DNA of 64,000 nucleotides, from positions 14,687 to 78,686 of the forward strand of contig CALXJY010000001.1 of assembly GCA_944388755.1 (NCBI GenBank). The letters run 5' to 3'. The position numbers were made by a program, and so were the translations under genes. Below are positions 19,260-45,023 of the stretch, piece after piece. Source of the stretch: an uncultured Clostridia bacterium. GTDB lineage: Bacteria > Bacillota > Clostridia > TANB77 > CAG-508. Below the pieces are notes generated by a model, which searched no databases, was not told the origin of the DNA, and worked only from the letters and a program-made list of their open reading frames with translations. Each line of letters opens with the position of its first letter. Position 1 is the first letter of the stretch.

Positions 19260-19308
19260 ATTATTCACAATCCTTTCTCATATATGAGTTGTACGTTGAT
19301 TAAATTTT

Positions 19309-19343: not shown

Positions 19344-19345
19344 TT

Positions 19346-21491: not shown

Positions 21492-21520
21492 ATTTTACCT
21501 TATTTTTGAGGATTTGTCAA
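21492..21520 (-). promoter_or_regulatory. sigma-A type promoter of gdpP
   Basis: The minus strand reads TTGACA (21520-21515), a 17-nt spacer, then TAAAAT (21497-21492). Confidence 0.5.
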
Positions 21521-21530
21521 TTTTAACACC

Positions 21531-21737
21531 TTATTTAATCGCATTTAAATATGCTTCTGTCATCTCGTCATCTGTTACATTATATTCTTCTTGTATTAAT
21601 TCTATCTCTTTACTTTGAGAATTAGTTGTATTTCCAGCCCATAAAAATAAATTTACTAGAACTATTAAAATAAATAAAATACTTGCAATTACTAAAATTG
21701 TTATTGAACCTTTTTGATTTTTTATTAAATTCTTCAT
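21531..21737 (-). CDS. hypothetical 68-aa single-pass membrane protein
   Basis: MKNLIKNQKGSITILVIASILFILIVLVNLFLWAG... has one hydrophobic helix and an acidic tail. AAGGAAG RBS and its own consensus promoter. No family recognised. Confidence 0.5.
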   Translation of the reverse strand: MKNLIKNQKGSITILVIASILFILIVLVNLFLWAGNTTNSQSKEIELIQEEYNVTDDEMTEAYLNAIK

Positions 21738-21783
21738 ATATATTCTTCCTTTTTCAATTATTTAATGATTTTATTATGTGTAA

Positions 21784-21812
21784 ATTATATCAATAATATT
21801 GACTTTTTTCAA
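21784..21812 (-). promoter_or_regulatory. sigma-A type promoter of the 68-aa ORF
   Basis: The minus strand reads TTGAAA (21812-21807), an exact 17-nt spacer, then TATAAT (21789-21784). Confidence 0.55.
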
Positions 21813-21852
21813 TTAATTTTTTTAATTTTTAAAGAACTTTAAGGATTACTCC

Positions 21853-24800
21853 CTAAAGTTCTTCTTTTTCTGCTAATTCAGTATTTATTTTTATGTCTTG
21901 GTATTTTTTCATTCCAGTACCTGCTGGAATTAATTTACCAATTATAACATTTTCTTTAAGTCCTACTAAATCATCAACTTTTCCTTTAACTGCTGCATCT
22001 GTAAGTACTCTTGTTGTTTCTTGGAATGATGCTGCAGATAAGAAACTATCTGTTGCAAGAGATGCTTTTGTAATTCCAAGTAAAACTCTTTTACCTGTTG
22101 CAGGACGTTTACCTTCTTTAATTGCCTCATTATTTTTATCTTCAAACTCATACATGTCAATTAAAGCACCTGGGAACATATCTGTATCTCCATTATCATC
22201 AATTCTTACTTTCTTAAGCATTTGTCTACCTATAACTTCAATATGTTTATCATTTATATCAACACCTTGGTTTCTATAAACTTTTTGTACTTCCGAAATT
22301 AAATATTCATATACACCTTTTGGTCCTTTAATTGCTAAAAGTTCGCTTGGGTTTACTGATCCCTCAATTAATGGTTGAGCTACTTCTACCATATCTCCAT
22401 TATTTACTTTCATTTTTGATCCAAATGGAATTGTATATGTTCTAGAATCATCTTTACTTGTTACTATTACCTCTTTTTTCTTCTTTGTCTCTTTTATTTT
22501 TACCTTTCCCGCTATTTCAGAAATAATAGCTAATCCTTTTGGTTTTCTAGCTTCAAATAATTCTTCAACTCTAGGAAGACCTTGTGTTATATCTGCAACA
22601 CCTGCAACACCACCAGAGTGTATTGTTCTCATTGTAAGCTGTGTTCCTGGTTCTCCAATTGATTGTGCTGCAATAATTCCAACTGATTCACCAATTGATA
22701 CTAAATCTCTTCTTGCTAAGCCCATACCATAACATTTTTGACAAACTCCATGTTTTGAATGGCAACCTAATACAGAACGTACTTCTAATTTTTCAATTCC
22801 AGCCTCAACTATTTTATCTGCAATTGGTTCTGTTATCATTGTATCTTTGTCTACAATAACTTCATTTGTTTTTGGATCAATAACATCTTGTAATGCAAAT
22901 CTTCCAACTAGTCTTTCTTGCATTTTTTCTATTATTTGATTTCCATCTTTTATATCATATACTAATATTCCTTCTTCTGTACCACAATCAGCTTCTCTTA
23001 CAATAATATCTTGTGATACATCAACTAATCTTCTTGTTAAATATCCAGAATCCGCTGTTCTTAATGCTGTATCTGAAAGTCCTTTTCTTGCTCCATGTGC
23101 AGATATAAAGTATTCCAATGCATCTAATCCATCTGCAAATGATGATTTTATTGGTATCTCAACAGCTTTACCTGTTGTACTTGCCATTAATCCTCTCATA
23201 CCTGCAATCTGACGTAATTGGTTCATATTACCACGGGCTCCTGATTTAACCATCATGTATATAGGATTTAAATCATCAAAATTTTCTTCCATTGCTTTAC
23301 TAACTTCATTTGTAGTATTTTCCCAAACTTTAATAACTGCGTTATAACGCTCTTCATTTGTAATAAGACCTCTTGCATATTGCTTACGTATATTTTCTAT
23401 TTGTTTATCCGCTTCTTCAAGTAATTGTTTTTTAGCTGGTGGTACTTCAACATCACTCATAGAGAATGTAATACCTGCAAGTGTAGAATATTTAAATCCT
23501 AATGCTTTGATATAATCAATTACTTCTGCAGATTCTGTTAATCCATGTAATCTTATTACTCTTTCTATTATTGTTCCCATAGATTTTTTCATTACTGGGA
23601 AATTTATCTCATATTGGAAAGGATCTTCTTTTCTATCTACAAATCCTAAATCTTGAGGAATTCCTTGGTTAAATATAATTCTTCCAACACTTGTTTCTAT
23701 TTTTTTAGTTTTAATCTCCCCATCAATTTCTTTTGTTATTCTAACAAAAATTTTAGCATGTATATCAACATCATTATTTTCAAATGCCATGATGGCTTCA
23801 TCAGGATCACGGAAATAAGTTCCTTCTCCTTTTTCTCCATCAAGAGTCATTGTTAAATAATAACTTCCTAAAATCATGTCTAGTCTAGGTACAGCAACTG
23901 GTTTACCATCCTGTGGTTTAAGTAAATTATTTGTTGATAACATTAGATATCTTGATTCTGCTTGTGCTTCAGGTGATAATGGTAAGTGTATAGCCATTTG
24001 GTCTCCATCAAAGTCTGCATTAAATGCTTCACAAACAAGTGGGTGTAATTTTATAGCTCTACCCTCTACTAAAACTGGTTCAAATGCTTGAATTCCAAGT
24101 CTGTGTAATGTTGGAGCTCTGTTTAGCATAACTGGATGATCTTTTATAACATCTTCCAATATTCCCCAAACCTCAGGGTTTAATCTTTCTACCATTCTTT
24201 TAGCATTTTTAATGTTTTGTGCTAAATTTCTCCCAACTAGTTCTTTCATAACAAATGGTTTAAATAATTCAATTGCCATCTCTTTTGGAAGTCCACATTG
24301 ATATATTTTAAGTTCAGGTCCAACAACAATAACTGAACGTCCTGAATAATCCACACGTTTTCCAAGCAAGTTTTGACGGAAACGTCCTTGTTTACCTTTT
24401 AACATATCTGATAAAGATTTTAAAGGTCTATTTCCAGCTCCTGTTACAGGTCTACCACGTCTACCATTATCTATTAATGCATCAACAGATTCTTGTAACA
24501 TACGTTTCTCATTACGTACAATAATTTCTGGTGCACCTAACTCTAATAATCTTTTTAATCTATTATTTCTATTTATAACTCTACGATATAAGTCATTTAA
24601 ATCTGATGTTGCAAATCTACCACCATCTAGTTGAACCATTGGTCTTAATTCAGGTGGAATAACAGGTACAACACCCATTACCATCCATTCAGGTCTGTTT
24701 CCTGAAATTCTAAAAGCTTCGACTGTATCTAATCTTTTTACTAATTTTGTTTTTTTCTGTTCGCTAGCTTTTTCAATTTCCTTTTTTATAGAAGCTGATA

Positions 24801-25362
24801 ATTTATCCAAATCAATTCCTTCTAGCAATGTACGTATTGCTTCTGCTCCCATTTGTGCTTTAAATGATCCTCTTCCAAATTTTTCTTCAGCTTCATGATA
24901 TTCTTTTTCATTTAAAACTTGGCATTTTTCCAAATCTGTTGTACCTTTATCTATAACAATATATGAAGCAAAATATATAACTTTCTCCAAATTTCTTGGT
25001 GATACATCTAGCATTAATGCAATTCTACTAGGTATTCCTTTAAAATACCATATATGTGCCACAGGTGCTGCAAGTTCAATATGTCCCATTCTTTCACGTC
25101 TAACTTTTGCTTTTGTTACTTCTACACCACAACGGTCACAAACTATCCCTTTATATCTTACTCTTTTATATTTACCACAATGACATTCCCAGTCTTTTGT
25201 TGGTCCAAATATTCTCTCACAAAATAAACCATCCTTTTCAGGTTTTAATGTTCTATAATTAATAGTTTCAGGTTTTTTTACTTCACCTTTTGACCATTCC
25301 CTTACTTTTTCATCTGATGCAATACCTATTTTTAATTTATTAAAAATATCCAATTCGTCCAC
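21853..25362 (-). CDS. rpoC: DNA-directed RNA polymerase subunit beta'
   Basis: 1169 aa with zinc-binding [23 protein letters not shown] and catalytic [12 protein letters not shown] start with AGGGGGA RBS. Confidence 0.97.
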
Positions 25363-25476
25363 GTTCTATTTCCCCCTATAACTTTTTTATTTGGGTAATT
25401 TTAGAACAATTTAAAAGCTATCCACTGCTCGAACAATTCCATCCTGTCGCTTTTAAACTTTCTAAAATTTATTTAA

Positions 25477-28400
25477 TTAAATATTATCTTCATCATTATC
25501 TATATTATCATTTGCTAAATCAGAATCAAATATATCTTCTTCTCCTTCATCATCTAGACCATCAAATAGTTCATCACTTTCATCTTCAATCATGTCATCG
25601 TCTTCCAAAGATTCGTCAATATATCCATCTTCTAAATCATCTGCTTCTATAACTTCTTCTTCAGATAATAGTTTTTTGTCTTGTTCAGGATCATATTCAA
25701 TACCATCTTCTATATTTTCTTTAAGTTCTAATTCTTGATTATCTTCTGAATATAATCTTACATCTAATCCTAATGATTGTAATTCTTTTACTAAAACTTT
25801 AAAGCTTTCTGGTACACCTGGTTCAGGTATATTTTCTCCTTTAACAATTGCTTCATATGTTTTAACACGTCCAACAACATCATCTGATTTTACAGTAAGC
25901 ATTTCTTGTAATGTATATGCTGCTCCATATGCCTCTAATGCCCAAACTTCCATCTCTCCAAAACGTTGTCCACCAAATTGTGCTTTACCTCCAAGTGGTT
26001 GTTGTGTAACTAGTGAGTATGGACCTGTTGAACGAGCATGAATTTTGTCATCTACTAAGTGATGTAATTTTAACATATACATAACACCAACTGTTACTGG
26101 TTTAGCAAAAGGATCTCCTGTTCTACCATCATATAATATTGTCTTTCCATCTGGTGACATTCCAGCTTCTTTTAATATTTCTTCTACATCTTCTTGTGTT
26201 GCACCATCAAATACAGGTGTTGATACATGCCATCCTAAAGCTTTTGCAGCTCCTCCCAAATGTACTTCTAAGATTTGTCCTAGATTCATACGAGAAGGTA
26301 CACCAAGTGGGTTAAGTAAAATATCTATTGGTGTTCCATCAGGCATAAATGGCATATCTTCTTCTGGTAATACTCTTGATATAACACCTTTATTACCATG
26401 ACGTCCAGCCATCTTGTCTCCAACTGATATTTTTCTTTTTGTTGCAATATAACATCTAATTATTTGATTAACACCTGGACCTAATTCATCTGAATTATCT
26501 CTAGTAAAGATTTTTACATCAACAATTGTTCCAGCTTCTCCATGTGGTACACGTAGTGATGTATCTCTAACCTCTCTAGCCTTTTCTCCAAATATTGCTC
26601 TTAACAATCTTTCTTCTGCTGTTAATTCTGTTTCACCTTTTGGTGTAACTTTTCCAACCAAAATATCTCCTGGTCTTACCTCTGCACCAATTCTAATAAT
26701 ACCATTTTCGTCTAAATCTTTTAGTACATCATCACCAACATTTGGTATATCTCTTGTTATTTCTTCAGGTCCTAATTTTGTATCTCTACATTCACAATCA
26801 TATTCTTCTATATGTATTGATGTAAATACATCTTCTTTAACTAATCTTTCATTTAGTAATATAGCATCTTCGTAATTATATCCTTCCCATGTAGAGAAAG
26901 CAACTAATACATTTTTTCCAAGTGACATTTCTCCATCTTTAGTTGATGGTCCATCTGCAATACTGTCTCCTTTTTTTACTATCTCGCCTTTTTTTACTAT
27001 TGGTTTTTGATTTATACATGTTCCACCATTTGTTCTTTTAAATTTACGTAATTTATGTACAACCGTTTTTCCATTATTGTATTTTACAGTAATACTATCT
27101 CCTGTAACTTTTTCTACAACACCATCATCTTCAGCTAATACTAATATTCCTGAATCTTTAGCTGCTCTATATTCAATACCTGTTCCTACAATTGGTCTTT
27201 CTGTAATCATTAATGGAACTGCTTGACGTTGCATGTTTGCTCCCATAAGTGATCTTTTTGCATCATCATGTTCTAAAAATGGTATCATTGCTGCAGCTAT
27301 AGAAACTAATTGTTTTGGTGACACGTCAACATATTGAACTTGATTTTTATCAACTTCTATTATGTCATTTTTAAATCTTACTCTAATTCTATTATTAATA
27401 AATTCACCTTTTTCATTCATTGGTTCAGATGCTTGTGCAATAATATAATTATCTTCCACATCTGCACTCATATATTCGACAATATCAGTTGCTCTATGTG
27501 TTTCAGGGTCTATTTTTCTATAAGGTGTTTCTATAAATCCATATTCATTAATATTTGCAAATGATGAAAGTGCAGATATTAATCCTATGTTTGGTCCTTC
27601 AGGTGACTCTATTGGACATAATCTACCATAATGTGTATAGTGAACATCACGTACTTCAAATCCTGCTCTTTCCCTTGTTAATCCTCCTGGTCCTAATGCT
27701 GATATTCTTCTTTTATGTGTTAATTCTGAAAGAGGGTTTGTTTGATCCATAAATTGTGATAATTGTGAACTTCCAAAGAATTCACGTATTGCTGATGTAA
27801 TAGGTTTTGTATTTATTAATGTTTGTGGTGTTACTACATCTAAATCTTGTATTGTCATTCTTTCACGTACTACTCTTTCAAGTCTAGCTAAACCAATTCT
27901 AAATTGATTTTGCAAAAGTTCTCCTACACAACGAATTCTACGATTTGATAAATGGTCTATATCATCTTTTTTACCTAATCCATGTGATAAATTAAGTAAA
28001 AGATTAATAGAAGCTATCATATCTTCTGTTGTGATATGTTTTGGCACTAATTCATCATATCTCTCTTTTAAAATCTTTAATAAATCTTTTTCTTCTGTAT
28101 TATCTAATATGTTTTTAAGTACATCATAATTAACATTTTCCTTAAAATGTAATGTGCTTAAATCTACATTTGGTAATATTTTGTAGATATTAACTGTACT
28201 ATTACCAATAATTCTTACTTTTCTTTCTCCTTGCATAATATCTACAATATTTATTCCTGAATTTTGAATATTTTCTGCTACTTCTTCTGAAATTACTTCT
28301 CCTGCTTGAACAAAAACTTCTCCAGTTTCTGTATCTACAATATCTTCAGCTGAAACTTTACCTTTTATTCTACCTGCTAGTCCTAATTTTTGGTTAAATT

Positions 28401-29223
28401 TATATCTTCCAACTTTTGCTAAGTCATATCTTCTATTATCATAAAATAATCCATTAAATAAATTTCTAGCAGCATCTACTGTTGGTAATTCACCTGGTCT
28501 TAATTTTTTATATATTTCAATTAAAGCATCTTCTTGTGTTTTAATTGGATCTTTTGCTATTGTGGCTGTAAGCATTTCTTCTTCTCCAAATAAATCTCTT
28601 ATTTGGTCATCTGAAATAATTCCAATTGCTCTTAATAATGTTGTAACTGGAACTTTTCTTGTTCTATCTACACGCACCCAAAAAATATCATTTCCATCTG
28701 TTTCATATTCAAGCCATGCTCCTCTTAGTGGCATAACTGTAGATGTATATGTCTTTTTACCTGTTTTTGTATCAAATATTTCGTCATAATAACATCCTGG
28801 TGAACGTACTAATTGGCTTACTACAACCCTTTCTGCACCATTTATAATAAATGTTCCACTATCTGTCATTAAAGGGAAATCACCTAAATAAATTTCTTGT
28901 TCTTTAATTTCTCCTGTCTCACGGTTAATTAATCTTACTTTTACATGTAATCTTGTTGAATATGTAGCATCTCTTTCTTTTGCTTCTTCTAATGTGTATT
29001 TTGTTTTTTCTTCCATGAAATAATCAAAAAACTCAAGAACAAGATTACCTGAATAGTCTTCTATTGGTGATATATCTTTTAATACTTCTCCTAATCCTTC
29101 TTCTACAAACCAATCATATGAATCTTTTTGTACTTTAATTAGGTTTGGCATTTCGATAAAATCTCCAACTTTGGCAAAATCTTTTCTTGAGGCTTTTTCG
29201 TATTGAATTTCTTTTAGTTTCAA
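25477..29223 (-). CDS. rpoB: DNA-directed RNA polymerase subunit beta
   Basis: 1248 aa with conserved blocks ([28 protein letters not shown]). TTG start with AAGGAG RBS. Has an acidic C-terminal tail. Confidence 0.97.
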
Positions 29224-29463
29224 AAAAAATCACTCCTTAAATAAAATTAAAGCAGAATAATTTATTTGATTTTAGGAAAAGTCCCTCTTAGAATATAGCT
29301 CTTACAAAAGCTTAAAACGCCTGCTTTACATTTTAAGTTATTTTGCAGTTTTCTATATTTAATTCCTCTTTTCTTAAAATTGGAAACATTTGATTTAAAT
29401 TGTTTTGATCTATTATTTTTTCATTTGATTTTAATTTTTTAAAGTGTAAAAATTCATATGGTA

Positions 29464-29493
29464 TTATATCAGATTCCAAGCTTATTTGTCAAT
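29464..29493 (-). promoter_or_regulatory. sigma-A type promoter of rpoB (long ~235-nt leader)
   Basis: The minus strand reads TTGACA (29493-29488), an 18-nt spacer, then TATAAT (29469-29464). Confidence 0.55.
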
Positions 29494-29550: not shown

Positions 29551-29579
29551 CAAAAAATTAGGAGAAAAACCTCCTAATT
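29551..29579 (-). terminator. rho-independent terminator closing the T7SS-like operon
   Basis: Minus RNA reads AAUUAGGAG-GUUUUU-CUCCUAAUU followed by UUUUUG. It starts 2 nt after the yukD-like stop codon. Confidence 0.8.
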
Positions 29580-29580
29580 T

Positions 29581-29838
29581 CTATATTAATATTATTTCTG
29601 CTCCATTTCTCATGTTACAGTTTTTTATGCTCAAATTTATATCATATGGCATACCAGTTAATTTATCATATAAAATTGGTATTTTACTAGGTTTATAATA
29701 TCCTCCTGTAATCTCATATATAGCTTTCATAAGGAGATTAATTATATTATAAACCTTTTGATTTAATGGTAGCCATACATCATATTGTTCTTCTATAATA
29801 GGAACATACAATTTTACTAAAACTTTATCCATTATCAT
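29581..29838 (-). CDS. esaB: YukD/EsaB-like ubiquitin-fold T7SS accessory protein
   Basis: ~85 aa. Its start overlaps the essC 3' end, suggesting translational coupling. The pattern VLVKLYVP...YDVWLPLNQKVYNII...PILYDKLTGMPYDINLSIKNCNMRNGAEIILI fits the small beta-grasp YukD family. Candidate starts are 29841 (GTG), 29838 and 29832. Confidence 0.65.
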   Translation of the reverse strand: MIMDKVLVKLYVPIIEEQYDVWLPLNQKVYNIINLLMKAIYEITGGYYKPSKIPILYDKLTGMPYDINLSIKNCNMRNGAEIILI

Positions 29839-32800
29839 CACTACTTTCTCTCATACCTAACAATTTTATAAGTGTTGGAATACCCTGTCTTACAATATAT
29901 CCATAGCTTCTTCCACAATTATTTACCAAATCTTGCCTATCATCTATACTAATAAGATATTGATCATCAATTCCGTTTCCAACATATATTCCAAAATCAT
30001 TTGATACATATGATTTATACCAATTATCATATTCATGGTTTTTTAATTTATTTACAGTTTCTACTATTATAAAATTATATAACCCTATTTCTTCAGCTGT
30101 TTTTAAAACTTCATTAAATTCTGTATCTTCTACAAATTCATTTATAAATTTATCAATTCCTATTATTATACATAACGTATTTTGTTTATTTTTTTCAAAG
30201 TTTTTCACAAAATTTTGATATTCTATTTTTGTTTTTTCTTTTTGTCCTACAGATGGTATTTCTGCATTTAATATAACTATATTCAAATTTTGTAATTTTT
30301 TTATTTCTTCAATAACATAATATAAAAATTCTACAGCATCATTTAAATTTTTAGATACAATAATATTCATAAGTCTTTTTGTAAAATCATATGTAGCTAT
30401 TTTTAGTTGTTTTTTTGTTAAGCCAATTGGTAATGTTTGTATATCTTTTAAATTTGGTTCAAAATCTTTCAGTGTTATTTTATCAGGAATAATTGGAATA
30501 CTTGGTGCAGATGGTTGCTCTGTAGTATCCAATGTATTAATAATTTCCTGCACATATGCATTATATTCTGCTTGTTCACATATTTTAGCAGTTTGGAATT
30601 CATAAATTTCATCACTATCTATAGTTATCAATCCTCTTCCAAAAATATGTGATGGTCTTTTCTTTCCTATTTTATCAAATATATTAAAATAATCATCTTC
30701 ATTATTTAATTGTAATACTATTTTCTTTTTAAAATTTTGTGTTAATCTATATCTCATCGCATTATAGACACTAACTGTAGTAATAAATATTATCCCACAT
30801 TTAGCACCTTCTCTTGTAATTGTTAAAAATATATCTTCATATTCCTCTTGAGTAATTTCTGAAAATGCTTCATAATTATTTAAAATAACTACCATCATCG
30901 GCATTGGCTTATTGCCTGTTTTTACAAATAATTGATAATCTCCATTATAATTTGATAAAATTTCTTTTCTATCTTTTATTTCATTTTGTATCATATCAAA
31001 AAATCTAGAAATTTTTTCATTTTCATTTGCTAAAACCACATCTCCAACTTGTGGTGCATTTCTATATATTTTTAATGCCTCACTTCCAAAGTCAAGTGCA
31101 TATATAATAACTTTTGTTGCATCATATGATGTAATTAGATTGTAAATTATTGTTCCCAATAATGTTTCTTTTCCACTTTCTGCATTTCCATATACAACTA
31201 TATTTCCCACATTTAAAAGATTTAAATTAACTAGACCTTGTCTTTGATTATATGGGTCATCATATTCACCAAGTATAACATTTATCCCATCTTTTAAATC
31301 TTTAACATGATATTTTTTCTTTAAATCTTCTACAAATATAGTCTCAGGTATACTATCTAACCATAAATTATGTGTTTGAATTTGTTCTTGCTTTGCTAAG
31401 TGATATATATATTTAACAATATTTGTTAATTGTTCACCCTTACTACTTATTACTTTTTGCGATGGATCTGCTACTTCTTTTATAGGTGCTCCTATATTAG
31501 AAATAAACTGTATTGAATTATCAATTTTCCTTTTTGCCATATCAGATGGATAATATGGTGCTCCTGACCATGCTGATTGTCCTAATACAAAATAATCGTC
31601 ATTACCAACTTGCATATAAAATTGTCCAGCTCCTCTTAAACTTGCAGCATCTGGTTTTTTTATAACATCCATACTGTCTTCTCTATCTTGCACTTTTAAA
31701 CATATAGCAAATTTGCTATTACTTCTAATTTGATCATTTACAATTCCAGCAGGTTTTTGTGTTGCTAATATCAAGTGAACACCTAAGCTTCTACCTATTC
31801 TTGAAACACTTATTAATTCATCCATAAATTCTTCTTGTTGTTGCTTTAATTCAGCAAACTCATCACAAATTATTAACAAATGAGGTATTGGCTCTTTTAT
31901 TATACCCTCATGATATAATTTTTGATATTTATAGATATCTATTGTTCCTTCATCTATCATGTTTCTAGCTTCATTAAATTTTATTTGTCTTCTTTTTAAT
32001 TCACTTTGTATTGATGCCAAAGACCTTTGTAACCCTATTGTATCAATATTTGTAATAGTTCCTACTAGATGAGGTAATTTTATCTGCCCTTTTGAAAAAG
32101 CTCCTGCTAATCCTCCACCTTTATAATCTATTAATAAAAATGTAACATCATCAGGCTGATAATTAATTGCCAAAGATAAAATATATGTTATTATAAATTC
32201 ACTCTTACCAGAACCTGTACTACCTGCAATAAGTCCATGTGGACCATGCATTTTTTCGTGAATATCTAAAACAATTGGCATCCCTGATGAATCTATCCCT
32301 ATTGGTGCTTTTAATGATAATGTAGAATCATTTTTTCTCCATCTTTCTAAAACATTTAACTGTTCTATTAATCCCACATCATACATTTCTAAAAATGTAT
32401 ATGTATTTGGCAACAGTCCACTACCTGTTCTCATATATCTAATCGGTATATTTGATATTGTTTGACATATTTTCTCAAAGAAGATTGTAAATGATGTATC
32501 AAATGTGATTTTTCTTTGGTTATTTGATGACATTTCACTATCAAATATAACTCCTGTATTATTTTCTAATGTTATAAATGTTTTACATTCATTTGGAAGT
32601 TGTGTCATATCTTCTGTGATACACAAAAGACTAAATCCCAGATTCTTTTTTGATTTCAACATTTCTGTTATTATTCTCAAATTTTCTATTTTAGTGTAAT
32701 CATCTGTTATTATTAAATAATATGGACTAAATGCTCTATAATCCATGTTTTCATCATATTGCATTCTTTCTTTCATTTCATCTTCAAGATATTTAGATAC

Positions 32801-34414
32801 TTCTTTCATATCTTCATAATTATCAGCATAAAATCTTATTTGTTTTGTATTGTTCCAAACATGTGGCAACATTTTTACATAATCCCAATAATTATCATTA
32901 TCTTTTTTTAATAAAAATACAAGTTTTAAATCTTCATAACTATGAAATGCTATTAATTGTACAATAAGAGATTGCATAAACTTTTTAAATGTTTCATTAT
33001 TTTTTACTACTAATGCTACTACATCTTTTTCAATTAATGATGTGACTATTGGTGCATCTTTTAATGTTTTTGATTTTTCTGCAATATCATTTAATATATC
33101 TACTAAATTATCATCCTCCATAGCAAAAGATTCTTCAGGATATTGTATTTCGATTTTTAGTGGCACATCACCTATTCCTAGTCTAACTTGTAAAAAGTCA
33201 TAATCTTCAATTTTCCTTTCCCAAAGTCTTGGCCCTTTTTCTAATATTATTTTTGTACATTCTTCTGCAGATACATAATTTTCAAAAAGAATTGCCTTTT
33301 GTTTAGACATAATTTTTTCTATTACTTTTCTCTTTTTATTCAAATATTCAGTATATCTTTTTTGACGTTTCTCTTCGTAACGCTTTTTTCTCCTTTTATC
33401 ATATTTAACATTCAAAATCGGAAATACAATTATACTTATAAGCATTGCCACTGCCATAGCCAATGAAAAAGCCGTATCTTTTGCAGTAGCTGTACCACTT
33501 ATTCTTCCATCTATAGTAGTTATAATTGAAATCATCATCATTAATCCCATTGCTAATGTTGATCCTAATACTAATATAGCAGGTGTATCTTCTTTATCTT
33601 GAATTTGTGGTGGAGCATCTATTTTGACCTTTTCAGTTTCTATTATATTTTTTATTCTTGGTGCTCTAGAAAAATACTCTTTATCAGAATATAACTCTAT
33701 ATTTTCCTGTATATCTTCACTAGACTGAGTTTTATCTATTACATATTTACTCTTATCTAGTTCAAAATATTTACTATTATATCTAACCGCATTTTGGGGA
33801 TTATTTATAAAGATACTATTTCCCATCATTATTACTTTAAGTCCCATAATAAAAATAACGTCGCCATTAAACAAAATTTTTGTTTCCCCAAAGATAGGCA
33901 TATTATTTACAAATGTTCCAAATCTGTTATCCAAATTCTCTATTACCCATCTTCCTGAATCTTTATAGATTCTTGCATGCGTATTTTTTACTAAGATATT
34001 ATTATATTCAATATGGTTTTGATTATTACTTCCTATATATATTTCTTTCGTATTTTTTATATTAAGATGTTCAAAACTATTTTCATAAACAGGAGAGCAA
34101 TATAAGATGTATAATTCTTCTAAGTTTCCAATACATATGCCATACATACTATATTCTTGTAATATAACTCTTTCTGTAACCTTTTCTCTACTTGGAATTA
34201 CAGAGATACTATTATTTGTAACATTTATAAATTTTGAGTTTATCACTTTTACATAATTATTACTTACCACTTGCCATTTTCCTGCTTTTCCCTCTATATT
34301 AACAAGTTTTTTTTCTTTTTCTTCTGTTTTATCTGTTATCCAATAATTTCCTACTGTAGTCTGTGGTAAAACTATTTTATGTATTGATTTTTTGCCTATT
34401 AATGTTACTAACAA
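29825..34414 (-). CDS. essC: type VII secretion system ATPase EssC/YukB (FtsK/SpoIIIE family)
   Basis: 1529 aa. Two FHA-like modules at the N-terminus (second: HARIYKDSGRWVIENLDNRFGTFVNN...LFNGDVIFIMG). TM pair at ~residues 278-336. Three P-loop-sized modules, with Walker A GSTGSGKSE and GNAESGKET visible. TTG start with GGGAGGGA RBS. Confidence 0.9.
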   Translation of the reverse strand: MLVTLIGKKSIHKIVLPQTTVGNYWITDKTEEKEKKLVNIEGKAGKWQVVSNNYVKVINSKFINVTNNSISVIPSREKVTERVILQEYSMYGICIGNLEELYILYCSPVYENSFEHLNIKNTKEIYIGSNNQNHIEYNNILVKNTHARIYKDSGRWVIENLDNRFGTFVNNMPIFGETKILFNGDVIFIMGLKVIMMGNSIFINNPQNAVRYNSKYFELDKSKYVIDKTQSSEDIQENIELYSDKEYFSRAPRIKNIIETEKVKIDAPPQIQDKEDTPAILVLGSTLAMGLMMMISIITTIDGRISGTATAKDTAFSLAMAVAMLISIIVFPILNVKYDKRRKKRYEEKRQKRYTEYLNKKRKVIEKIMSKQKAILFENYVSAEECTKIILEKGPRLWERKIEDYDFLQVRLGIGDVPLKIEIQYPEESFAMEDDNLVDILNDIAEKSKTLKDAPIVTSLIEKDVVALVVKNNETFKKFMQSLIVQLIAFHSYEDLKLVFLLKKDNDNYWDYVKMLPHVWNNTKQIRFYADNYEDMKEVSKYLEDEMKERMQYDENMDYRAFSPYYLIITDDYTKIENLRIITEMLKSKKNLGFSLLCITEDMTQLPNECKTFITLENNTGVIFDSEMSSNNQRKITFDTSFTIFFEKICQTISNIPIRYMRTGSGLLPNTYTFLEMYDVGLIEQLNVLERWRKNDSTLSLKAPIGIDSSGMPIVLDIHEKMHGPHGLIAGSTGSGKSEFIITYILSLAINYQPDDVTFLLIDYKGGGLAGAFSKGQIKLPHLVGTITNIDTIGLQRSLASIQSELKRRQIKFNEARNMIDEGTIDIYKYQKLYHEGIIKEPIPHLLIICDEFAELKQQQEEFMDELISVSRIGRSLGVHLILATQKPAGIVNDQIRSNSKFAICLKVQDREDSMDVIKKPDAASLRGAGQFYMQVGNDDYFVLGQSAWSGAPYYPSDMAKRKIDNSIQFISNIGAPIKEVADPSQKVISSKGEQLTNIVKYIYHLAKQEQIQTHNLWLDSIPETIFVEDLKKKYHVKDLKDGINVILGEYDDPYNQRQGLVNLNLLNVGNIVVYGNAESGKETLLGTIIYNLITSYDATKVIIYALDFGSEALKIYRNAPQVGDVVLANENEKISRFFDMIQNEIKDRKEILSNYNGDYQLFVKTGNKPMPMMVVILNNYEAFSEITQEEYEDIFLTITREGAKCGIIFITTVSVYNAMRYRLTQNFKKKIVLQLNNEDDYFNIFDKIGKKRPSHIFGRGLITIDSDEIYEFQTAKICEQAEYNAYVQEIINTLDTTEQPSAPSIPIIPDKITLKDFEPNLKDIQTLPIGLTKKQLKIATYDFTKRLMNIIVSKNLNDAVEFLYYVIEEIKKLQNLNIVILNAEIPSVGQKEKTKIEYQNFVKNFEKNKQNTLCIIIGIDKFINEFVEDTEFNEVLKTAEEIGLYNFIIVETVNKLKNHEYDNWYKSYVSNDFGIYVGNGIDDQYLISIDDRQDLVNNCGRSYGYIVRQGIPTLIKLLGMRESSDDNG

Positions 34415-34475
34415 TTATTCTCCCTCCCTTTTCTATCGTGTATTATTTTTTATTCTTTAGCTTAAATATATTTAT

Positions 34476-35753
34476 TTAAATTTTCTTATCCTTTTTATTA
34501 TCAATAATATCTTTAGCCTTATCTATAATAACTTTCTCTTTCTCTTCTATAGTTTTATTTATATCCTCACTATTTTCTGATTTGTTTGTCACATTACTTA
34601 ATCGACCTGATATGTTACTTGAACTTTTTGAAGATTTTGCACTTACAAATCCACCGGTAAATGCCATTAATATTTGGCTATTTGACATATTATTTTTTTT
34701 CATCAATTCAATTAAACTATCCATTCTTTTATTAAGTTTAATATTTATTGACTTAGAATCACTAATTTCAGTAATAATATCTGTTTTACTTTTCAATTTT
34801 TTGTTAATTATCTGTACTAACTCCTCTTTTGTTATATCTTGTTTCTGTAGTAATTCTACTAATTCGTTTACTTTCGCTTGAATTGATGCTTTATCAACTT
34901 TTTGAGTTTTGTCTGTTCCATTTACTACTACTGAACTTGTTCCTGATAATCCACCAGTTGAAGATGTTCCCGCAGATGAATTTGAATGTATGTTATTTCC
35001 ACCTGTAGAACCTGAATTTATATTAGCTTGCGAATCTTCACTCTTATTTGAATCATCAAATATTTTTTCACTTTTAGATTCTAATTCTGATACAAAATCT
35101 TTAGAAACATCTGTTATCTTATCACCAAGTCCTTTTATATCATCAAGTTTACTATTCAATTCTTTTTCAGTTATATCATTAACTTTAGAAGCAAGACCTT
35201 GTGCTTCACTATATATATTTTTTCCTCCGGAAACAATTTTTTCAATAAAATCTCCTGTAGAATCTATTCCCTTTTGCACATTTTCTTTAAAATTTTTTAT
35301 TTTTTGTTCTTTTGAAATTTCTCTTAATTTTGAAATTTTTGCCTGTGCCTCACCTCTAATATCAGTCAATTTTTCATAATTACTTTTTATTCCAGTTATT
35401 TTTTTAGAAATTGTATCTTTTGCAGAATTAACTAATGGATTATCTTGTTCCATAAGATTAGGTATTCCTCCTAGTGCCATATTACTTAACATAGCAGTAA
35501 TAGCTTGATTTCTAGCTTCTGCTTCATTTATCTTAGCAACATATCCACCTACTCCTGAATCTATACCTCCTAAACTACTTTCTATACCTGCTATTGTATT
35601 TGAAATACTTCTAAGTTCCCTTGCTTTTGGAAAATCAGATGGTGATTCTATTGAGTCTACTACACTTTTAGCACTTCTTAAATATCTTTCAGCTTGTTTA
35701 ATTCTTGATCTAACTCCACTCTGTAATCCAGTTGTATCAACTTTAAGTCCCAT
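34476..35753 (-). CDS. T7SS-associated helical / low-complexity protein (candidate substrate; LXG-like N-terminus without recognisable toxin domain)
   Basis: 425 aa from the ATG at 35753, with AAAGGAATGGG RBS. The N-terminus MGLKVDTTGLQSGVRSRIKQAERYL... is helical. It has a central S/G/T/N-rich tract and a K/S/N-rich helical C-terminus. No signal peptide and no TM segment. Confidence 0.55.
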   Translation of the reverse strand: MGLKVDTTGLQSGVRSRIKQAERYLRSAKSVVDSIESPSDFPKARELRSISNTIAGIESSLGGIDSGVGGYVAKINEAEARNQAITAMLSNMALGGIPNLMEQDNPLVNSAKDTISKKITGIKSNYEKLTDIRGEAQAKISKLREISKEQKIKNFKENVQKGIDSTGDFIEKIVSGGKNIYSEAQGLASKVNDITEKELNSKLDDIKGLGDKITDVSKDFVSELESKSEKIFDDSNKSEDSQANINSGSTGGNNIHSNSSAGTSSTGGLSGTSSVVVNGTDKTQKVDKASIQAKVNELVELLQKQDITKEELVQIINKKLKSKTDIITEISDSKSINIKLNKRMDSLIELMKKNNMSNSQILMAFTGGFVSAKSSKSSSNISGRLSNVTNKSENSEDINKTIEEKEKVIIDKAKDIIDNKKDKKI

Positions 35754-35805
35754 AATAATCCCATTCCTTTCTTTTAAAAGCAAAATTTGTTATATAAAAC
35801 CCATA

Positions 35806-36231
35806 TTATAACATATAGAATTGCTGTTGTAATTGGGCAATTGAAACTTTTGCATTTTTTATCCAATTATCTAGTTGTTCAATTTTTACTTCTAATTTTT
35901 TTATTTGCCTGCTAGCTTCACCTGAAACTCCGCTTAGTCGTGAAACAACTCCATCAATAGATGTCATTTTTTCAGACACCTCTCCTGCAAATTTTTTTAT
36001 AGAAAAACCTGAATAATTATTTAAAATAAAACTAGCTCTAGATAATTGAGCTTTTGCTGTTCTTAATTTACTCTGAGCAGAACTTATTTCAGTTTTCATA
36101 GCAATATATCTTCTCTTTTTTTCCATTGCTTCTTTTCGATCCGGCTCCCAAATAGCTAAAGAAGCATTTAGATTATCTATATCTGCTTGAATTCTTGCCT
36201 TAGCCTCTGCTCTTTCAAGTATACTACTCAT
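35806..36231 (-). CDS. T7SS-associated 141-aa all-helical protein (Lap/DUF5082-like by architecture)
   Basis: The start is most likely the ATG at 36231 (MSSILERAEAKARIQADIDNL...), preceded by AGGGGGG. Coiled-coil heptads run throughout, and it lies between the WXG100 gene and the 425-aa gene. Confidence 0.5.
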   Translation of the reverse strand: MSSILERAEAKARIQADIDNLNASLAIWEPDRKEAMEKKRRYIAMKTEISSAQSKLRTAKAQLSRASFILNNYSGFSIKKFAGEVSEKMTSIDGVVSRLSGVSGEASRQIKKLEVKIEQLDNWIKNAKVSIAQLQQQFYML

Positions 36232-36311
36232 AAAAACCCCCCTAAATATATTTTTATAAATATTTTCCTTGATAACTGAATATACAGTTACCAAAGAAAG
36301 TATTTATACTT

Positions 36312-36926
36312 TTAATTAACTGTATTTGCATTTTCTGTTGCTTGAATATCTTGCAATGTTTGTTGCATAGATTTTGTAAATGATGCATTAAATTCATCAA
36401 AAAATGTAGTTATGTTTTTCTTTAATTGCATAAATCTAGCTCTAAATTGAGTAGCTGCATCACTTACCCATTCAACTTTTGAATAAATTGTTTGAATTTG
36501 ATCCATTTTTTCTTTTGCATTTGTGAAATTTGCTGATACCTTTTTTTGTACATTAGCAACTTCATCAGACATAAATTTTAAGCCTTCTTCTGTACTTGGT
36601 GTTATAGCATTAATTTTTTTAGGTTCTGTTCTTGCAGCACTTGTTATTTTTCCAACACCATCTGCTGAAGAATAGTTATTTGCAATTGTTTCTAATGCAA
36701 ATGGAAGTTGTGCAACAACAAATTCTAATAGTTCTGACATTTGTGGTATCATATTATTAAATTGTTGTAACAAAGAATTATATCTTTTTCCATACCAAAC
36801 TGAATGCATATTAGCTATATTTGTATATGCTTCTATAAGTGCTTGGTTTAATTCTTGTCCTGCTGATCTCATTTGCTTTGCATATGATGGCATTGTTTCA
36901 TATTGTGCCTTAGGAATTCTTGCCAT
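36312..36926 (-). CDS. tandem (duplicated) WXG100/EsxA-like protein
   Basis: 204 aa from the ATG at 36926, with GGGGAGGTGAG RBS. The first half carries HSVWYGKRYNSLLQQF (W-x-G turn). The second half carries KVEWVSDAATQFRARF (a degenerate W-x-S turn). Each is flanked by ~40-aa helices, so the protein is two ~100-aa helical hairpins in one polypeptide. Confidence 0.6.
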   Translation of the reverse strand: MARIPKAQYETMPSYAKQMRSAGQELNQALIEAYTNIANMHSVWYGKRYNSLLQQFNNMIPQMSELLEFVVAQLPFALETIANNYSSADGVGKITSAARTEPKKINAITPSTEEGLKFMSDEVANVQKKVSANFTNAKEKMDQIQTIYSKVEWVSDAATQFRARFMQLKKNITTFFDEFNASFTKSMQQTLQDIQATENANTVN

Positions 36927-41705: not shown

Positions 41706-42929
41706 TTATAAAATTCTAAAATAATTCAGAACATTAAATATTAATGCAAGTGTAAGTACACATATTAGACATATCATAATCTTAGAGTTAACTTCAATTT
41801 TCATTTCTTTATATAAAACATCATATTGGTTTTTAACTTCCATATATAGATGATCAATATCTAATTTTTTAAAAATTTGATAATCAAGCCAAGAACCGAC
41901 CTCATCATCAGTAGTCTCTTGTGTCCATACCTCTTTCGTAAATTGTGCAAACTTTTTTCTAGCACTAGACCAATCCTGAAGTCTTGAAAAATCTAGACTT
42001 AGTTTCTTTAAATAAATTTTTTTATATAAATTTAAAATATATGTATATAAATAAATTGTCTCAAAATTATTTGGCAAAATAGTATAATTATACATATCTG
42101 CATCAGATGTAAATAATACAACACCTTGTTTTGATACTCCAAGTCTTGCATATTTCCACTTTGAACATGTAAATACTTCATCTGTCTTGTATTCAACACT
42201 ATTATCTGCAGAAAAAAAATTTGAAAATTTAATATACATATTTTCTACATTTTCAAAATTTTTGTTTGTTCCCCATGTTTGTTGATCTATACAAACATAT
42301 GAATAACTCAAAAATCTCTGAGTATCTAAGTCTAATTTCATGGCCTCTATCTTTGAAGAAGTTATATTTTCTATAAAATCAGTTAATTCAGTAACACTCG
42401 AAAATAAATCTGTTTGCAAATGAATATTTTTATAATCTGTAACAAATTCATTATCTCTTTGTATATCTCTAAACCTGTAATTAAAATTTAGTACATCTGC
42501 AAATTCATCTGTATTCTCCACATTTGTCTTCATAAGTAAAAAACAAATTCCTGTTTTAAAACAAACTAACTCAATTTTTTGTATTTTAAAAAATATACTA
42601 TTTTCAATAGCTTTTCCCTGTACATCTTTAGGCATACAATATTCAAAAATTGTGCAAGGATATTCACTTAAAATCGCAGACTTTGTTTCTATTGGCAAAC
42701 TTTCTAATTTGTTTAACTTATTTGTTGAAAAATCAAAACTAGAAAATAAGAATTTACTTACCTTTGGCAAAAAATATTGATATAACCCCAAGTCTTTTTC
42801 TTTTTGAAATATCTTTAGAGAAATCTTGTCATTTCTTAGCAATTTCATAATATATTTTTTATATTTTTCTTCTTTAACAATAAACGGATGTATAAAATAC
42901 GAATATTGATATTTTATCTTTTGTCCCAT
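41706..42929 (-). CDS. hypothetical 407-aa protein with C-terminal TM helix
   Basis: Intact ORF with RBS, tightly packed between the WG-repeat gene (20-nt gap) and acpS. One C-terminal hydrophobic helix (IMICLICVLTLALIFNVLNYF). No family motif recognised. Confidence 0.55.
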   Translation of the reverse strand: MGQKIKYQYSYFIHPFIVKEEKYKKYIMKLLRNDKISLKIFQKEKDLGLYQYFLPKVSKFLFSSFDFSTNKLNKLESLPIETKSAILSEYPCTIFEYCMPKDVQGKAIENSIFFKIQKIELVCFKTGICFLLMKTNVENTDEFADVLNFNYRFRDIQRDNEFVTDYKNIHLQTDLFSSVTELTDFIENITSSKIEAMKLDLDTQRFLSYSYVCIDQQTWGTNKNFENVENMYIKFSNFFSADNSVEYKTDEVFTCSKWKYARLGVSKQGVVLFTSDADMYNYTILPNNFETIYLYTYILNLYKKIYLKKLSLDFSRLQDWSSARKKFAQFTKEVWTQETTDDEVGSWLDYQIFKKLDIDHLYMEVKNQYDVLYKEMKIEVNSKIMICLICVLTLALIFNVLNYFRIL

Positions 42930-44476: not shown

Positions 44477-44553
44477 TTTATCCTCCTAATTTTTAATATG
44501 TTAATATTTTACTACATTTATTGATTTTTTGCAACCGAATTTTTTACTTAAAA

Positions 44554-44805
44554 ATTACAGTTCACATGTAATTTTAAATTATATTAAAAAAGAATTATAT
44601 ATTATATTGAATAAATTTGGAGTTTGATTGGAGTTTATTTAGAATTTCTTAAAGAATTTTACGGAAAGTGTTCAATATGAAATATTGGAAGGGAGCCGTA
44701 AAATTCTTGTTAGAAATTCTTAATAAATGTATTGAAACCGGAAAATTTATGAAATATAATATATAATTCTTTTAAGTAACTAATATTATACATGTGAACT
44801 GTAAT
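44554..44805. repeat. 252-bp long imperfect inverted repeat (~110-bp arms, ~30-nt loop) in the WG-repeat/spoIIE divergent intergenic region
   Basis: The left arm ATTACAGTTCACATGTAAT...AAGAATTATATATTATATT...TTAGAATTTCTTAAAGAATTTTACGG pairs with the right arm CCGTAAAATTCTTGTTAGAAATTCTTAA...AATATAATATATAATTCTT...ATTATACATGTGAACTGTAAT. The termini are 17/18-nt near-perfect inverted repeats. Confidence 0.8.
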
Positions 44806-45023
44806 ATGTATCTTACAAAAATCATCAAATTTCTTGCTTTTTTTTTAATTTTATAATACAATAAAAAAAATAAAAAGTAGAATGAAAAAAAATAAAAGGA
44901 AAAATATAAATTAATCATCACTTTTTGTAAAAAACTTTTTTAAAATAGCCTACTAGAAAAGACAAAAAATACATAAGACAAGTAGTAAAATAACACTGAA
45001 AAAAAGTTTTAGAGGTGGTAAGG

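What the first reader, a model, noticed from the sequence alone, without database searches (positions are those of the whole stretch)
29551..36926. Pared-down T7SSb-like cluster (tandem WXG100, two helical proteins, EssC, YukD) with no EssB/EsaA/EssA, abutting rpoB
Seen in the sequence: five co-directional minus-strand ORFs are separated by 52-80 nt gaps or overlap.
- a 204-aa tandem WXG100-like protein
- a 141-aa helical protein
- a 425-aa helical/low-complexity protein
- a 1529-aa EssC with FHA-like N-terminus, TM pair and Walker A GSTGSGKSE / GNAESGKET
- a YukD/EsaB-like ~85-aa protein whose start overlaps the essC stop
The unit ends in a canonical terminator (29551-29579). The predicted rpoB promoter lies 58 bp further on.

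Established: firmicute T7SSb machines (S. aureus ess, B. subtilis yuk) require the membrane components EssB/YukC, EsaA/YueB and EssA as well as EssC, and these are normally in the same operon. No ORF here, or anywhere in the window, has those architectures (cytoplasmic pseudokinase plus TM; large polytopic; small bitopic).

Inference: this is either a minimal EssC-centred export apparatus or a satellite ATPase/substrate module that depends on a core locus elsewhere.
Basis: partly seen in the sequence, partly recalled or inferred. Interest (0 to 1): 0.7.

Follow-up and report, generated by a model that had tools for sequence, protein, structure and literature searches.

The report
Compact three-gene type VII secretion module
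This is a real type VII protein-secretion gene cluster from an uncultured gut Clostridia bacterium whose only conserved parts are a fused double WXG100 protein, the EssC motor and a small ubiquitin-like protein, which matters because it may show the smallest gene set that can still run this kind of secretion.

Summary
There are five co-directional minus-strand genes, a terminator, and the rpoB promoter 58 bp beyond it.

Assignments:
- 1529-aa protein: EssC-type ATPase (NCBIfam EssC equivalog, 980 bits against a cutoff of 778).
- 204-aa protein: two fused WXG100 hairpins.
- 83-aa protein: no sequence match to YukD, but it folds (pLDDT 94.6) as a ubiquitin-like domain nearest EccD-Ubl and YukD.
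- 141-aa and 425-aa helical proteins: soluble, variable cargo, not divergent EssA/EssB. They look like a Lap-like partner plus an effector with a conserved ~100-aa N-terminal domain and an orphan C-terminus.

Among 96 related full-length EssC loci, only EssC, the Ubl and WXG gene(s) recur. Flanks differ from locus to locus. No conserved neighbour family and no annotated neighbour matched EssB/YukC, EsaA or EssA.

The arrangement matches none of the published subtypes T7SSa–j. I rate it a new variant of a known kind.

Whether it works alone or needs unlinked partners could not be tested, because no whole genome was available.

The parts
36312..36926 (-). Fused tandem WXG100 protein (204 aa): hairpin 1 with W47-Y-G49, a ~30-aa linker, hairpin 2 with invariant W156 (WxS), and a conserved C-terminal tail TE-x-ANTV.
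   Evidence: Pfam WXG100 36.6 bits against a cutoff of 27.3, two stretches. A profile search against PDB matches the N-half to S. agalactiae EsxA (3gvm) and the C-half to B. anthracis EsxB and S. aureus EsxA. The AF2 model has pLDDT 92.5, pTM 0.87 and four long helices. The family holds only 91 clusters among 5.8e9 proteins.
36264..36308 (-). Strong intercistronic stem-loop directly after the WXG stop codon. Inferred to be a partial terminator or mRNA-stabilising hairpin that uncouples WXG expression from the downstream genes.
   Evidence: dG -23.9 kcal/mol, z -8.4. A hairpin sits at the same place in all 17 loci checked. 16 of 19 consensus pairs show compensatory changes. No Rfam family matches.
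35806..36231 (-). 141-aa soluble helical protein. Member of the variable-cassette family 'c4'; a Lap-like partner of the effector.
   Evidence: An HMM of c4 proteins from 14 related loci hits it at E = 1.5e-14. Weak Pfam YwqH-like hit, E = 3e-4, below cutoff. No TM segment.
34476..35753 (-). 425-aa soluble effector candidate: a conserved ~100-aa N-terminal helical hairpin (motif around SPSDF), then an orphan helical and S/G/T-rich C-terminal region.
   Evidence: An HMM of the N-termini of 'c3' proteins hits it at E = 2.2e-17. Among 1.84e9 representatives, only its own cluster matches over the full length, and 11 others match only the N-terminal portion, mostly about 100 residues. One of those carries a Peptidase_M15_4 C-terminus. 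No TM segment and no Pfam or NCBIfam family.
29825..34414 (-). EssC/TsxC: N-terminal FHA region, two TM helices, DUF/stalk, ATPase D1 (GSTGSGKS), D2 (GNAESGKET), and a degenerate, least-conserved D3.
   Evidence: TIGR03928 T7_EssCb_Firm 979.9 bits against a cutoff of 778. Pfam FtsK_SpoIIIE E = 2.5e-43 and FHA E = 2.3e-10. Best PDB sequence match is B. subtilis YukB (9qks), E = 1.6e-126, over residues 195-981 only. Conservation profile.
29581..29832 (-). 83-aa ubiquitin-like protein (TsxB/YukD/EsaB analogue). Its start overlaps the essC stop by 8 nt.
   Evidence: AF2 pLDDT 94.6, pTM 0.84. Foldseek top hits: EccD5 Ubl (7np7_D2, TM 0.78), 7b7j, 4kv2, and YukD 2bps (TM 0.73/0.77, rmsd 2.2). It lies immediately downstream of EssC in 92 of 95 related loci. 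No significant sequence hit to YukD.
29553..29582 (-). Intrinsic terminator that ends the unit.
   Evidence: 13-bp stem plus T-run. dG -15.7 kcal/mol, z -5.0.

Best explanation
The region is one copy of a compact type VII secretion module that is widespread in uncultured, low-GC gut Clostridia.

Conserved core: three genes.
- EssC, a membrane FtsK/SpoIIIE-type ATPase with an N-terminal FHA region.
- A ubiquitin-like protein, translationally coupled to EssC.
- A WXG100 component. Here it is two hairpins fused into one 204-aa chain, an intramolecular EsxA/EsxB-like four-helix bundle.

Between the WXG gene and essC lies a swappable cargo cassette. In this genome it holds a 141-aa Lap-like helical partner and a 425-aa effector with a conserved N-terminal targeting hairpin and a lineage-specific C-terminal region.

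Inferred mechanism, by analogy with the B. subtilis YukB/YukD structure:
- EssC hexamerises to form both the channel and the motor.
- The Ubl clamps the FHA and DUF domains of EssC to stabilise assembly.
- The fused WXG protein and the partner-effector helical bundle are recognised by the C-terminal ATPase domains and exported.
- A conserved hairpin after the WXG gene gives the WXG transcript higher abundance than the rest of the operon.

The module probably works without EssB, EsaA or EssA homologues.

Shown: gene identities, folds, conservation pattern and the variability of the cargo.
Inferred: export, stoichiometry, autonomy and the role of the hairpin.
For: - EssC passes the NCBIfam EssC equivalog cutoff. 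WXG100 passes the Pfam cutoff. The Ubl fold is modelled with high confidence and sits nearest T7SS Ubl domains.
- In 48 loci with EssC at least 50% identical, the Ubl is adjacent in 47 of 48. A tandem WXG lies upstream in 30 of 30 loci that have enough flank.
- In 48 more distant loci (EssC 40-49% identical), the Ubl is adjacent in 45 of 47. Small separate WXG-like genes follow in 29 of 40.
- No other gene family recurs in more than about a third of loci. The recurrent ones that were annotated are cargo (DUF4176 chaperone, effectors, Lap-like) or housekeeping (rpsI/rplM, IleRS, P-type ATPase, HtrA, TraG).
- Flanks differ between loci.
- D1 is 83-97% conserved with an invariant Walker A. The FHA region and D3 are the most variable parts, as expected for a functional motor with variable partner and substrate interfaces.
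- The effector N-terminal domain is fused to different C-termini, including a peptidoglycan peptidase. Toxin/immunity-like duplications occur in relatives.
- DUF4176 is a known chaperone family for T7SSb toxins (PMC12478183, PMC12482557).
- In the YukB structure, YukB is modelled as a hexamer forming the central channel, and YukD binds YukB directly (bioRxiv 10.1101/2025.01.24.634720).
Against: - No complete genome could be searched, so EssB/EsaA/EssA or other partners encoded elsewhere are not excluded.
- EssC keeps an FHA region. In T7SSb that region docks the EssB pseudokinase, so some partner may still exist.
- Every characterised T7SS so far has at least one further membrane component.
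- No immunity gene or DUF4176 accompanies the 425-aa protein here, and its C-terminal region has no recognisable activity.
- Some relatives have split essC ORFs (L012, L017, L019), so not every copy need be functional.
- No expression or secretion data exist.
Confidence: 0.6

Rival explanations
1. Satellite module. The cluster supplies an extra EssC, Ubl, WXG and cargo set that plugs into a canonical T7SSb membrane core (EssB, EsaA, EssA) encoded at another locus in the same genome.
For: EssC is closest in sequence to T7SSb EssC/YukB and retains FHA domains. The source is a MAG and only 64 kb is visible. Clostridial genomes with two T7SS loci are known (PMC11217815).
Against: Of 96 full-length EssC loci from many genomes and contexts, no conserved neighbour family and no annotated neighbour matched EssB/EsaA/EssA within 10 kb. 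Each locus carries its own complete A/B/C trio rather than substrates alone. The FHA region (residues 1-194) does not align to the FHA domains of YukB that bind YukC, although the 9qks chain contains them.
Confidence: 0.15
2. The module needs additional, unlinked and so far unrecognised partners that are not homologous to EssB/EsaA/EssA. These could be a membrane protein that binds the FHA region, or a housekeeping kinase/phosphatase pair such as PrkC/Stp. On this view it is a new subtype but not a three-component machine.
For: Every described subtype (a-j) has extra subtype-specific components. FHA domains usually dock a partner. In some loci the module lies a few kb from rlmN-PP2C-PASTA kinase.
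Against: T7SS components are normally clustered, and no candidate co-localises consistently in about 110 loci. By reading the sequence, the pThr-binding residues of FHA2 look non-canonical (GS, KxxH and FG where GR, SxxH and NG are expected). The PP2C/PASTA-kinase pair is the ordinary housekeeping operon and is adjacent in only a minority of loci.
Confidence: 0.2
3. A decaying remnant of a T7SSb locus that has lost its membrane genes and no longer secretes.
For: Canonical accessory genes are missing. Some relatives have essC split into two ORFs. The cargo here lacks a recognisable toxin domain and an immunity gene.
Against: Hundreds of intact ~1525-aa EssC clusters exist: 874 hits, and the top 120 are all about 1505-1560 aa. 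Walker A is invariant and D1 is 83-97% conserved. Translational coupling, RBSs, the regulatory hairpin and the terminator are preserved.
Confidence: 0.05

Closest known systems
T7SSb (S. aureus Ess, B. subtilis Yuk/Yue)
   Same: EssC of the firmicute type with an N-terminal FHA region, two TM helices and three ATPase domains with a degenerate D3. A free-standing ubiquitin-like protein. A WXG100 protein. Cargo organised as a helical partner plus an N-terminal-domain effector, with DUF4176 chaperones in relatives.
   Different: No EssB/YukC, EsaA/YueB or EssA in the cluster, in the 64-kb window, or next to about 110 related loci. The WXG100 is a covalently fused double hairpin, not a homodimer of ~100-aa chains. 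The FHA region is not alignable to that of YukB. The Ubl and the effector N-terminal domain do not reach the Pfam YukD or LXG thresholds.
T7SSg (Acetivibrio/Paenibacillus; Garrett et al. 2024, PMC11217815)
   Same: The simplest described subtype. It has two WXG100 hairpins (as TsgA1 and TsgA2), a Ubl and the ATPase, with few other parts.
   Different: TsgC lacks FHA domains, whereas this EssC has them. T7SSg has the DUF5050 beta-propeller TsgL and adjacent Tad pilus genes, and neither is present here. Here the two WXG hairpins are fused into one chain.
T7SSf / T7SSj (Clostridium; PMC11217815)
   Same: Clostridial host. FHA-bearing ATPase closer to T7SSb than to T7SSa. WXG100 plus Ubl.
   Different: No PPM phosphatase (TsxF), no DUF6382-FHA protein (TsxJ), no AAA+/TadZ-like TsfV, no kinase TsjD and no large Ig-like TsjI in the cluster. 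The only PP2C-type protein in the window is a bona fide SpoIIE on the other strand, about 8 kb away.
T7SSa EsxA/EsxB heterodimer
   Same: Two non-identical WXG100 hairpins forming one four-helix bundle, only one of them with a canonical WXG turn, and a conserved C-terminal tail on the second hairpin.
   Different: Here the two hairpins are one polypeptide joined by a ~30-aa linker. The rest of the T7SSa machinery (EccB, EccD, EccE, MycP) is absent.

Membership tests
Type VII secretion system (universal TsxA/TsxB/TsxC core, PMC11217815) | Membrane-bound FtsK/SpoIIIE-type multi-domain ATPase (EccC/EssC) | tested here: met
   TIGR03928 979.9 bits, above the 778.4 cutoff. PF01580 E = 2.5e-43. Two TM helices. 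YukB 9qks E = 1.6e-126.
Type VII secretion system (universal TsxA/TsxB/TsxC core, PMC11217815) | WXG100-family protein encoded in the cluster | tested here: met
   PF06013 36.6 bits, above the 27.3 cutoff, two stretches. Both halves match PDB WXG100 proteins.
Type VII secretion system (universal TsxA/TsxB/TsxC core, PMC11217815) | Small ubiquitin-like protein without a C-terminal Gly-Gly | tested here: met
   AF2 pLDDT 94.6. Foldseek matches EccD Ubl at TM 0.77-0.78 and YukD at TM 0.73/0.77. The C-terminus is ...EIILI, with no GG.
T7SSb | EssB/YukC (cytoplasmic pseudokinase, one TM, extracellular domain) | tested here: not met
   No PF10140 hit in any window ORF of 100 aa or more. The cluster proteins other than EssC have no TM segment. 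None was found beside any related locus. The whole genome could not be tested.
T7SSb | EsaA/YueB (large polytopic) and EssA (small bitopic) | tested here: not met
   Same searches as for EssB. The 991-aa window ORF is a soluble acidic coiled coil. The large ORFs beside outgroup loci are IleRS and a P-type ATPase. The whole genome could not be tested.
T7SSb | Single ~100-aa EsxA that homodimerises | tested here: not met
   The WXG component is a 204-aa fusion of two different hairpins.
T7SSf | PPM phosphatase TsfF, DUF6382-FHA membrane protein TsfJ and AAA+ TsfV in the cluster | tested here: not met
   None of the five genes or their neighbours match these. The SpoIIE at 45015-47444 has the SpoIIE_N sporulation architecture.
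T7SSg | ATPase without FHA, DUF5050 beta-propeller TsgL, adjacent Tad pilus genes | tested here: not met
   FHA is present. No DUF5050 or Tad genes in the window.
YukD (Pfam PF08817), by sequence | Significant match to the YukD profile | tested here: not met
   No hit for the window protein. 2 of 19 orthologues hit at E ~0.09. A profile search against PDB sequences found nothing. Similarity is at fold level only.
LXG polymorphic toxins (Pfam PF04740) | N-terminal LXG domain | tested here: inconclusive
   1 of 18 N-terminal domains hits LXG at E = 0.003, and the window protein does not. The architecture (conserved helical N-terminus, variable C-terminus, helical partner, DUF4176 in relatives) is LXG-like.

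The most novel reading that the evidence does not exclude
EssC, one ubiquitin-like protein and one fused double-WXG100 protein form a self-sufficient type VII secretion machine. This would be the minimal functional T7SS, needing no accessory membrane protein, and it would be widespread in animal and human gut Clostridia.
Probability: 0.35. Interest if true: 0.75.

Novelty: new variant of a known kind. Interest (0 to 1): 0.55.

Why it matters
T7SS research still lacks a clear view of which components form the channel and which are accessories. Every studied system carries several subtype-specific membrane proteins. A naturally pared-down module would give a tractable minimal system for reconstitution and structure work. 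It would also test directly whether an EssC hexamer plus the Ubl is sufficient for export.

The covalent WXG fusion fixes the stoichiometry and orientation of the EsxA/EsxB-like pair. That could help map how WXG proteins engage the ATPase.

The module is common in gut metagenomes, including human ones, and it carries polymorphic effector cassettes. It is therefore probably a significant and so far uncatalogued route of interbacterial antagonism among gut Clostridia.

Tried and rejected
- Sequence route to YukD for the 83-aa protein. Pfam, NCBIfam and a 19-sequence profile against PDB gave nothing usable. Structure prediction settled it.
- Foldseek on the full tandem WXG model. It returned only generic four-helix bundles (Dps/ferritin, TM ~0.4, no E <= 0.001), which is uninformative because PDB holds WXG100 proteins as separate chains.
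- EssC protein search. The 120 listed hits were all in-clade, so it could not show the outgroup.
- Candidate hidden EssB/EsaA in the window. The 991-aa ORF at 2237-5212 is a soluble acidic coiled coil. The 407-aa ORF at 41706-42929 has only a C-terminal anchor, no Pfam hit even at E = 1, and is not conserved beside other modules. Both rejected.
- Candidate EsaA/EssB-like neighbours in outgroup loci. k52 is a P-type ATPase, k47 is IleRS, k41 is TraG and k13/k16 are rpsI/rplM. Rejected. k56, k14, k18 and k77 have no Pfam hit and are restricted to one sub-group each.
- The idea that the long 'c3' proteins are a structural membrane component. Many have weakly hydrophobic Gly/Ala-rich segments. However, c3 is absent from some loci, varies from about 200 to 1212 aa, is duplicated alongside immunity-like genes, and is soluble here. 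Rejected in favour of effectors.
- LXG membership of the effector N-terminus: inconclusive.
- Rfam and tRNA scans of the window: nothing found.
- Literature search for fused or tandem WXG100 and for this arrangement: nothing found.


Full report
**Observation**

The five minus-strand ORFs are present. I refined the start sites from ribosome-binding sites and orthologue N-termini.

| Gene | Coordinates | Length |
|---|---|---|
| Tandem WXG | 36312-36926 | 204 aa |
| Helical protein | 35806-36231 | 141 aa |
| Helical/low-complexity protein | 34476-35753 | 425 aa |
| EssC | 29825-34414 | 1529 aa |
| Small protein | 29581-29832 | 83 aa |

- The gaps between genes are 80, 52 and 61 nt. The last gene overlaps the essC stop by 8 nt.
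- The unit ends in a hairpin plus T-run at 29553-29582.
- A perfect extended -10 promoter sits at 29492-29463, 58 bp further on, ahead of rpoB.
- The window has about 27% GC. It is 98.6–99.5% identical at protein level across the five cluster genes (95–100% over all shared genes) to a contig of an uncultured Clostridia MAG (L001, CALXHD010000002).

**Identity of the parts**

*EssC*
- It passes the NCBIfam EssC equivalog, TIGR03928, at 979.9 bits against a cutoff of 778.4.
- It has Pfam FtsK_SpoIIIE and FHA domains and two TM helices.
- Its best solved relative is B. subtilis YukB (9qks, E = 1.6e-126), well ahead of T. curvata EccC (E = 1.8e-58).
- That alignment starts at residue 195. The FHA region is therefore not alignable to that of YukB, although the chain contains it.
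- Across the clade, D1 is the most conserved part (83-97% column identity, invariant GSTGSGKS). The FHA region and D3 are the least conserved.
- By reading the sequence, FHA2 lacks the canonical pThr-binding residues.

*204-aa WXG protein*
- It passes the Pfam WXG100 threshold with two stretches.
- A profile of 37 family members matches PDB WXG100 proteins with both halves. The N-half matches SAG1039/EsxA and the C-half matches B. anthracis EsxB and S. aureus EsxA.
- AlphaFold gives four long helices in two hairpins joined by a ~30-residue linker (pLDDT 92.5, pTM 0.87).
- Only hairpin 1 has a WXG turn (W47-Y-G49). Hairpin 2 has an invariant W156 in a WxS turn. The C-terminal tail TE-x-ANTV is conserved.

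*83-aa protein*
- It has no usable sequence match to YukD.
- It is modelled with high confidence (pLDDT 94.6) as a beta-grasp fold.
- Its nearest solved structures include the EccD ubiquitin-like domains of ESX systems (TM 0.77-0.78) and YukD itself (TM 0.73/0.77, rmsd 2.2 Å).

**Comparative genomics**

I collected about 110 related loci from three sources:
- a scan of species-representative genomes;
- look-ups of encoding contigs;
- a scan of JGI metagenomes.

They come from rabbit, sheep, sloth, human and other gut samples. I called ORFs and clustered them.

| Feature | EssC ≥50% identical (48 full-length loci) | EssC 40-49% identical (48 loci) |
|---|---|---|
| Ubl gene immediately downstream | 47 of 48 | 45 of 47 |
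| Tandem WXG within 8 kb upstream | 30 of 30 with enough flank | 2 of 27 |
| Small separate WXG-like genes just after the Ubl | not counted | 29 of 40 |

- In the pairs of ~96-104 aa, the first gene scores better against the N-half of the tandem protein. The second scores better against the C-half, in four of five cases. This suggests the 204-aa protein arose by gene fusion.
- No other family is present in more than about a third of loci.
- The recurrent families that were annotated are either cargo or local housekeeping synteny.
  - Cargo: DUF4176, effectors, and Lap-like partners.
  - Housekeeping: rpsI/rplM, IleRS, P-type ATPase, TraG, HtrA, Abi, SpoIID, rlmN-PP2C-PASTA kinase.
- Flanks differ widely. 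The module sits next to rpoB here, radC-mreBCD in L031/32, lysS and ferritin in L029, and ICE genes in L026/27 and L060-69.
- No conserved neighbour family and no annotated neighbour was an EssB/YukC, EsaA or EssA homologue.

**The two helical proteins are cargo, not machine**

- Neither has a hydrophobic segment, so they cannot be divergent EssA or EssB.
- The space between the WXG gene and essC varies. It is empty in L016 and L006 and reaches 6.5 kb elsewhere.
- An HMM of the 110-224-aa 'c4' proteins from relatives hits the 141-aa protein at E = 1.5e-14. An HMM of the N-terminal 130 residues of the 'c3' proteins hits the 425-aa protein at E = 2.2e-17.
- c3 proteins share a ~95-residue helix-(I/V)P(S/D)DF-helix hairpin and then diverge completely.
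- c3 proteins range from about 200 to 1212 aa. They are sometimes duplicated with immunity-like ORFs (L022). They are often followed by DUF4176, a chaperone family for T7SSb toxins (PMC12478183, PMC12482557).
- Among 1.84 billion representatives, the 425-aa protein has full-length relatives only in its own cluster. Eleven further hits share only the N-terminal portion, mostly about 100 residues. One of them ends in a Peptidase_M15_4 cell-wall hydrolase domain.
- This is the architecture of polymorphic T7SS effectors. Pfam LXG is not convincingly matched.
- The copy in this window lacks DUF4176 and any obvious immunity gene. The activity of its C-terminal region is unknown.

**Regulatory detail**

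- A very stable hairpin follows the WXG stop codon (dG -23.9 kcal/mol, z -8.4).
- A hairpin occupies the same position in all 17 loci checked. 16 of 19 consensus pairs show compensatory changes. No Rfam family matches.
- I infer that it acts as a partial terminator or 3' stabiliser that raises WXG transcript levels relative to the downstream genes.

**Comparison with known systems**

[quoted passage not shown] Three of these were tested and not found in cis, and the WXG component differs. The locus should therefore not be filed as T7SSb, although its EssC is T7SSb-like.
- Garrett, Higginson and Palmer (PMC11217815) described subtypes c-j. They share only TsxA, TsxB and TsxC and add subtype-specific parts. 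None of those parts (kinase, PPM phosphatase, vWA, EspG-like, DUF6382-FHA, AAA+/TadZ, DUF5050 propeller, Ig-like giant protein, Tad neighbours) is in this cluster.
- That study used RefSeq. This clade is known here only from MAGs and metagenomes.
- I found no paper describing fused WXG100 proteins or this arrangement.
- The cryo-EM work on YukB/YukC/YukD (bioRxiv 10.1101/2025.01.24.634720) models YukB as the central hexameric channel, with YukD clamping its FHA and DUF domains. This makes an EssC-plus-Ubl core mechanistically plausible.

**Limits**

- No complete genome could be interrogated, so unlinked partners are not excluded.
- The retained FHA region hints that some partner may exist.
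- No functional data are available.
- The placement of this EssC relative to TsbC-TsjC was not done by phylogeny, for lack of labelled reference sequences.

**Verdict**

The locus is a new variant of a known kind: a compact T7SS module with a fused WXG100 and a swappable effector cassette. Its autonomy is plausible but unproven.

Noticed in passing
window 36264-36308 (-), and the same position in L002-L020: A conserved strong stem-loop lies directly after the tandem-WXG stop codon. Many copies share the core TTGATAACTG...CAGTTATCAA. It shows compensatory changes and matches no Rfam family. It could be an attenuator or stabiliser RNA, or a palindromic operator.
   Followed up: partly
L070, L074, L081, L093, L096 (just downstream of EssC-Ubl): In sister clades (EssC 41-46% identical) the fused WXG is replaced by two separate ~96-104-aa WXG-like genes placed after the Ubl. 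The first resembles the N-half and the second the C-half of the fusion. This implies a gene-fusion and relocation event.
   Followed up: partly
window 17367-18711 (-): dnaB is split into two overlapping ORFs (300 aa carrying DnaB_N plus the start of DnaB_C, and 171 aa carrying the rest of DnaB_C). This is a frameshift, a pseudogene or an assembly error.
   Followed up: no
window 18813-29492 (-): Unusual gene order. rpoB-rpoC are not preceded by rplKAJL and are followed by gdpP-rplI-dnaB. rpoB has a ~240-nt leader after a perfect extended -10 promoter, and a C-terminal tail of about 100 aa (roughly residues 1150-1248) rich in acidic residues.
   Followed up: no
window 2237-5212 (-) and 41706-42929 (-): A 991-aa highly acidic coiled-coil protein and a 407-aa tail-anchored protein have no Pfam match even at E = 1. 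Neither is conserved beside other T7SS modules.
   Followed up: partly
window 47681-57203 (-): Two adjacent giant surface proteins (1504 and 1662 aa) carry SpaA, SdrD_B and DUF11 domains. The same 1662-aa type lies near the T7SS module in L032.
   Followed up: no
L026/L027 1-9200; L060, L063, L069, L089 upstream of EssC: In several relatives the module abuts conjugative-element genes (TraG/VirD4, TrbL, sortase, integrase). Otherwise syntenic genomes carry it at different sites, which suggests that the module moves.
   Followed up: partly
L041, L045, L050 (downstream of the Ubl): A human-gut sub-group carries a ParA/MinD-like ATPase (273 aa, weak CbiA hit), an 86-aa gene, a 550-aa gene and a second tandem WXG gene after the Ubl. 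This may be a sub-variant with extra parts.
   Followed up: no
window 44000-48000: The only GC-skew reversal in the window coincides with the single large plus-strand gene, SpoIIE (45015-47444). It reflects gene orientation, not a replication landmark.
   Followed up: no
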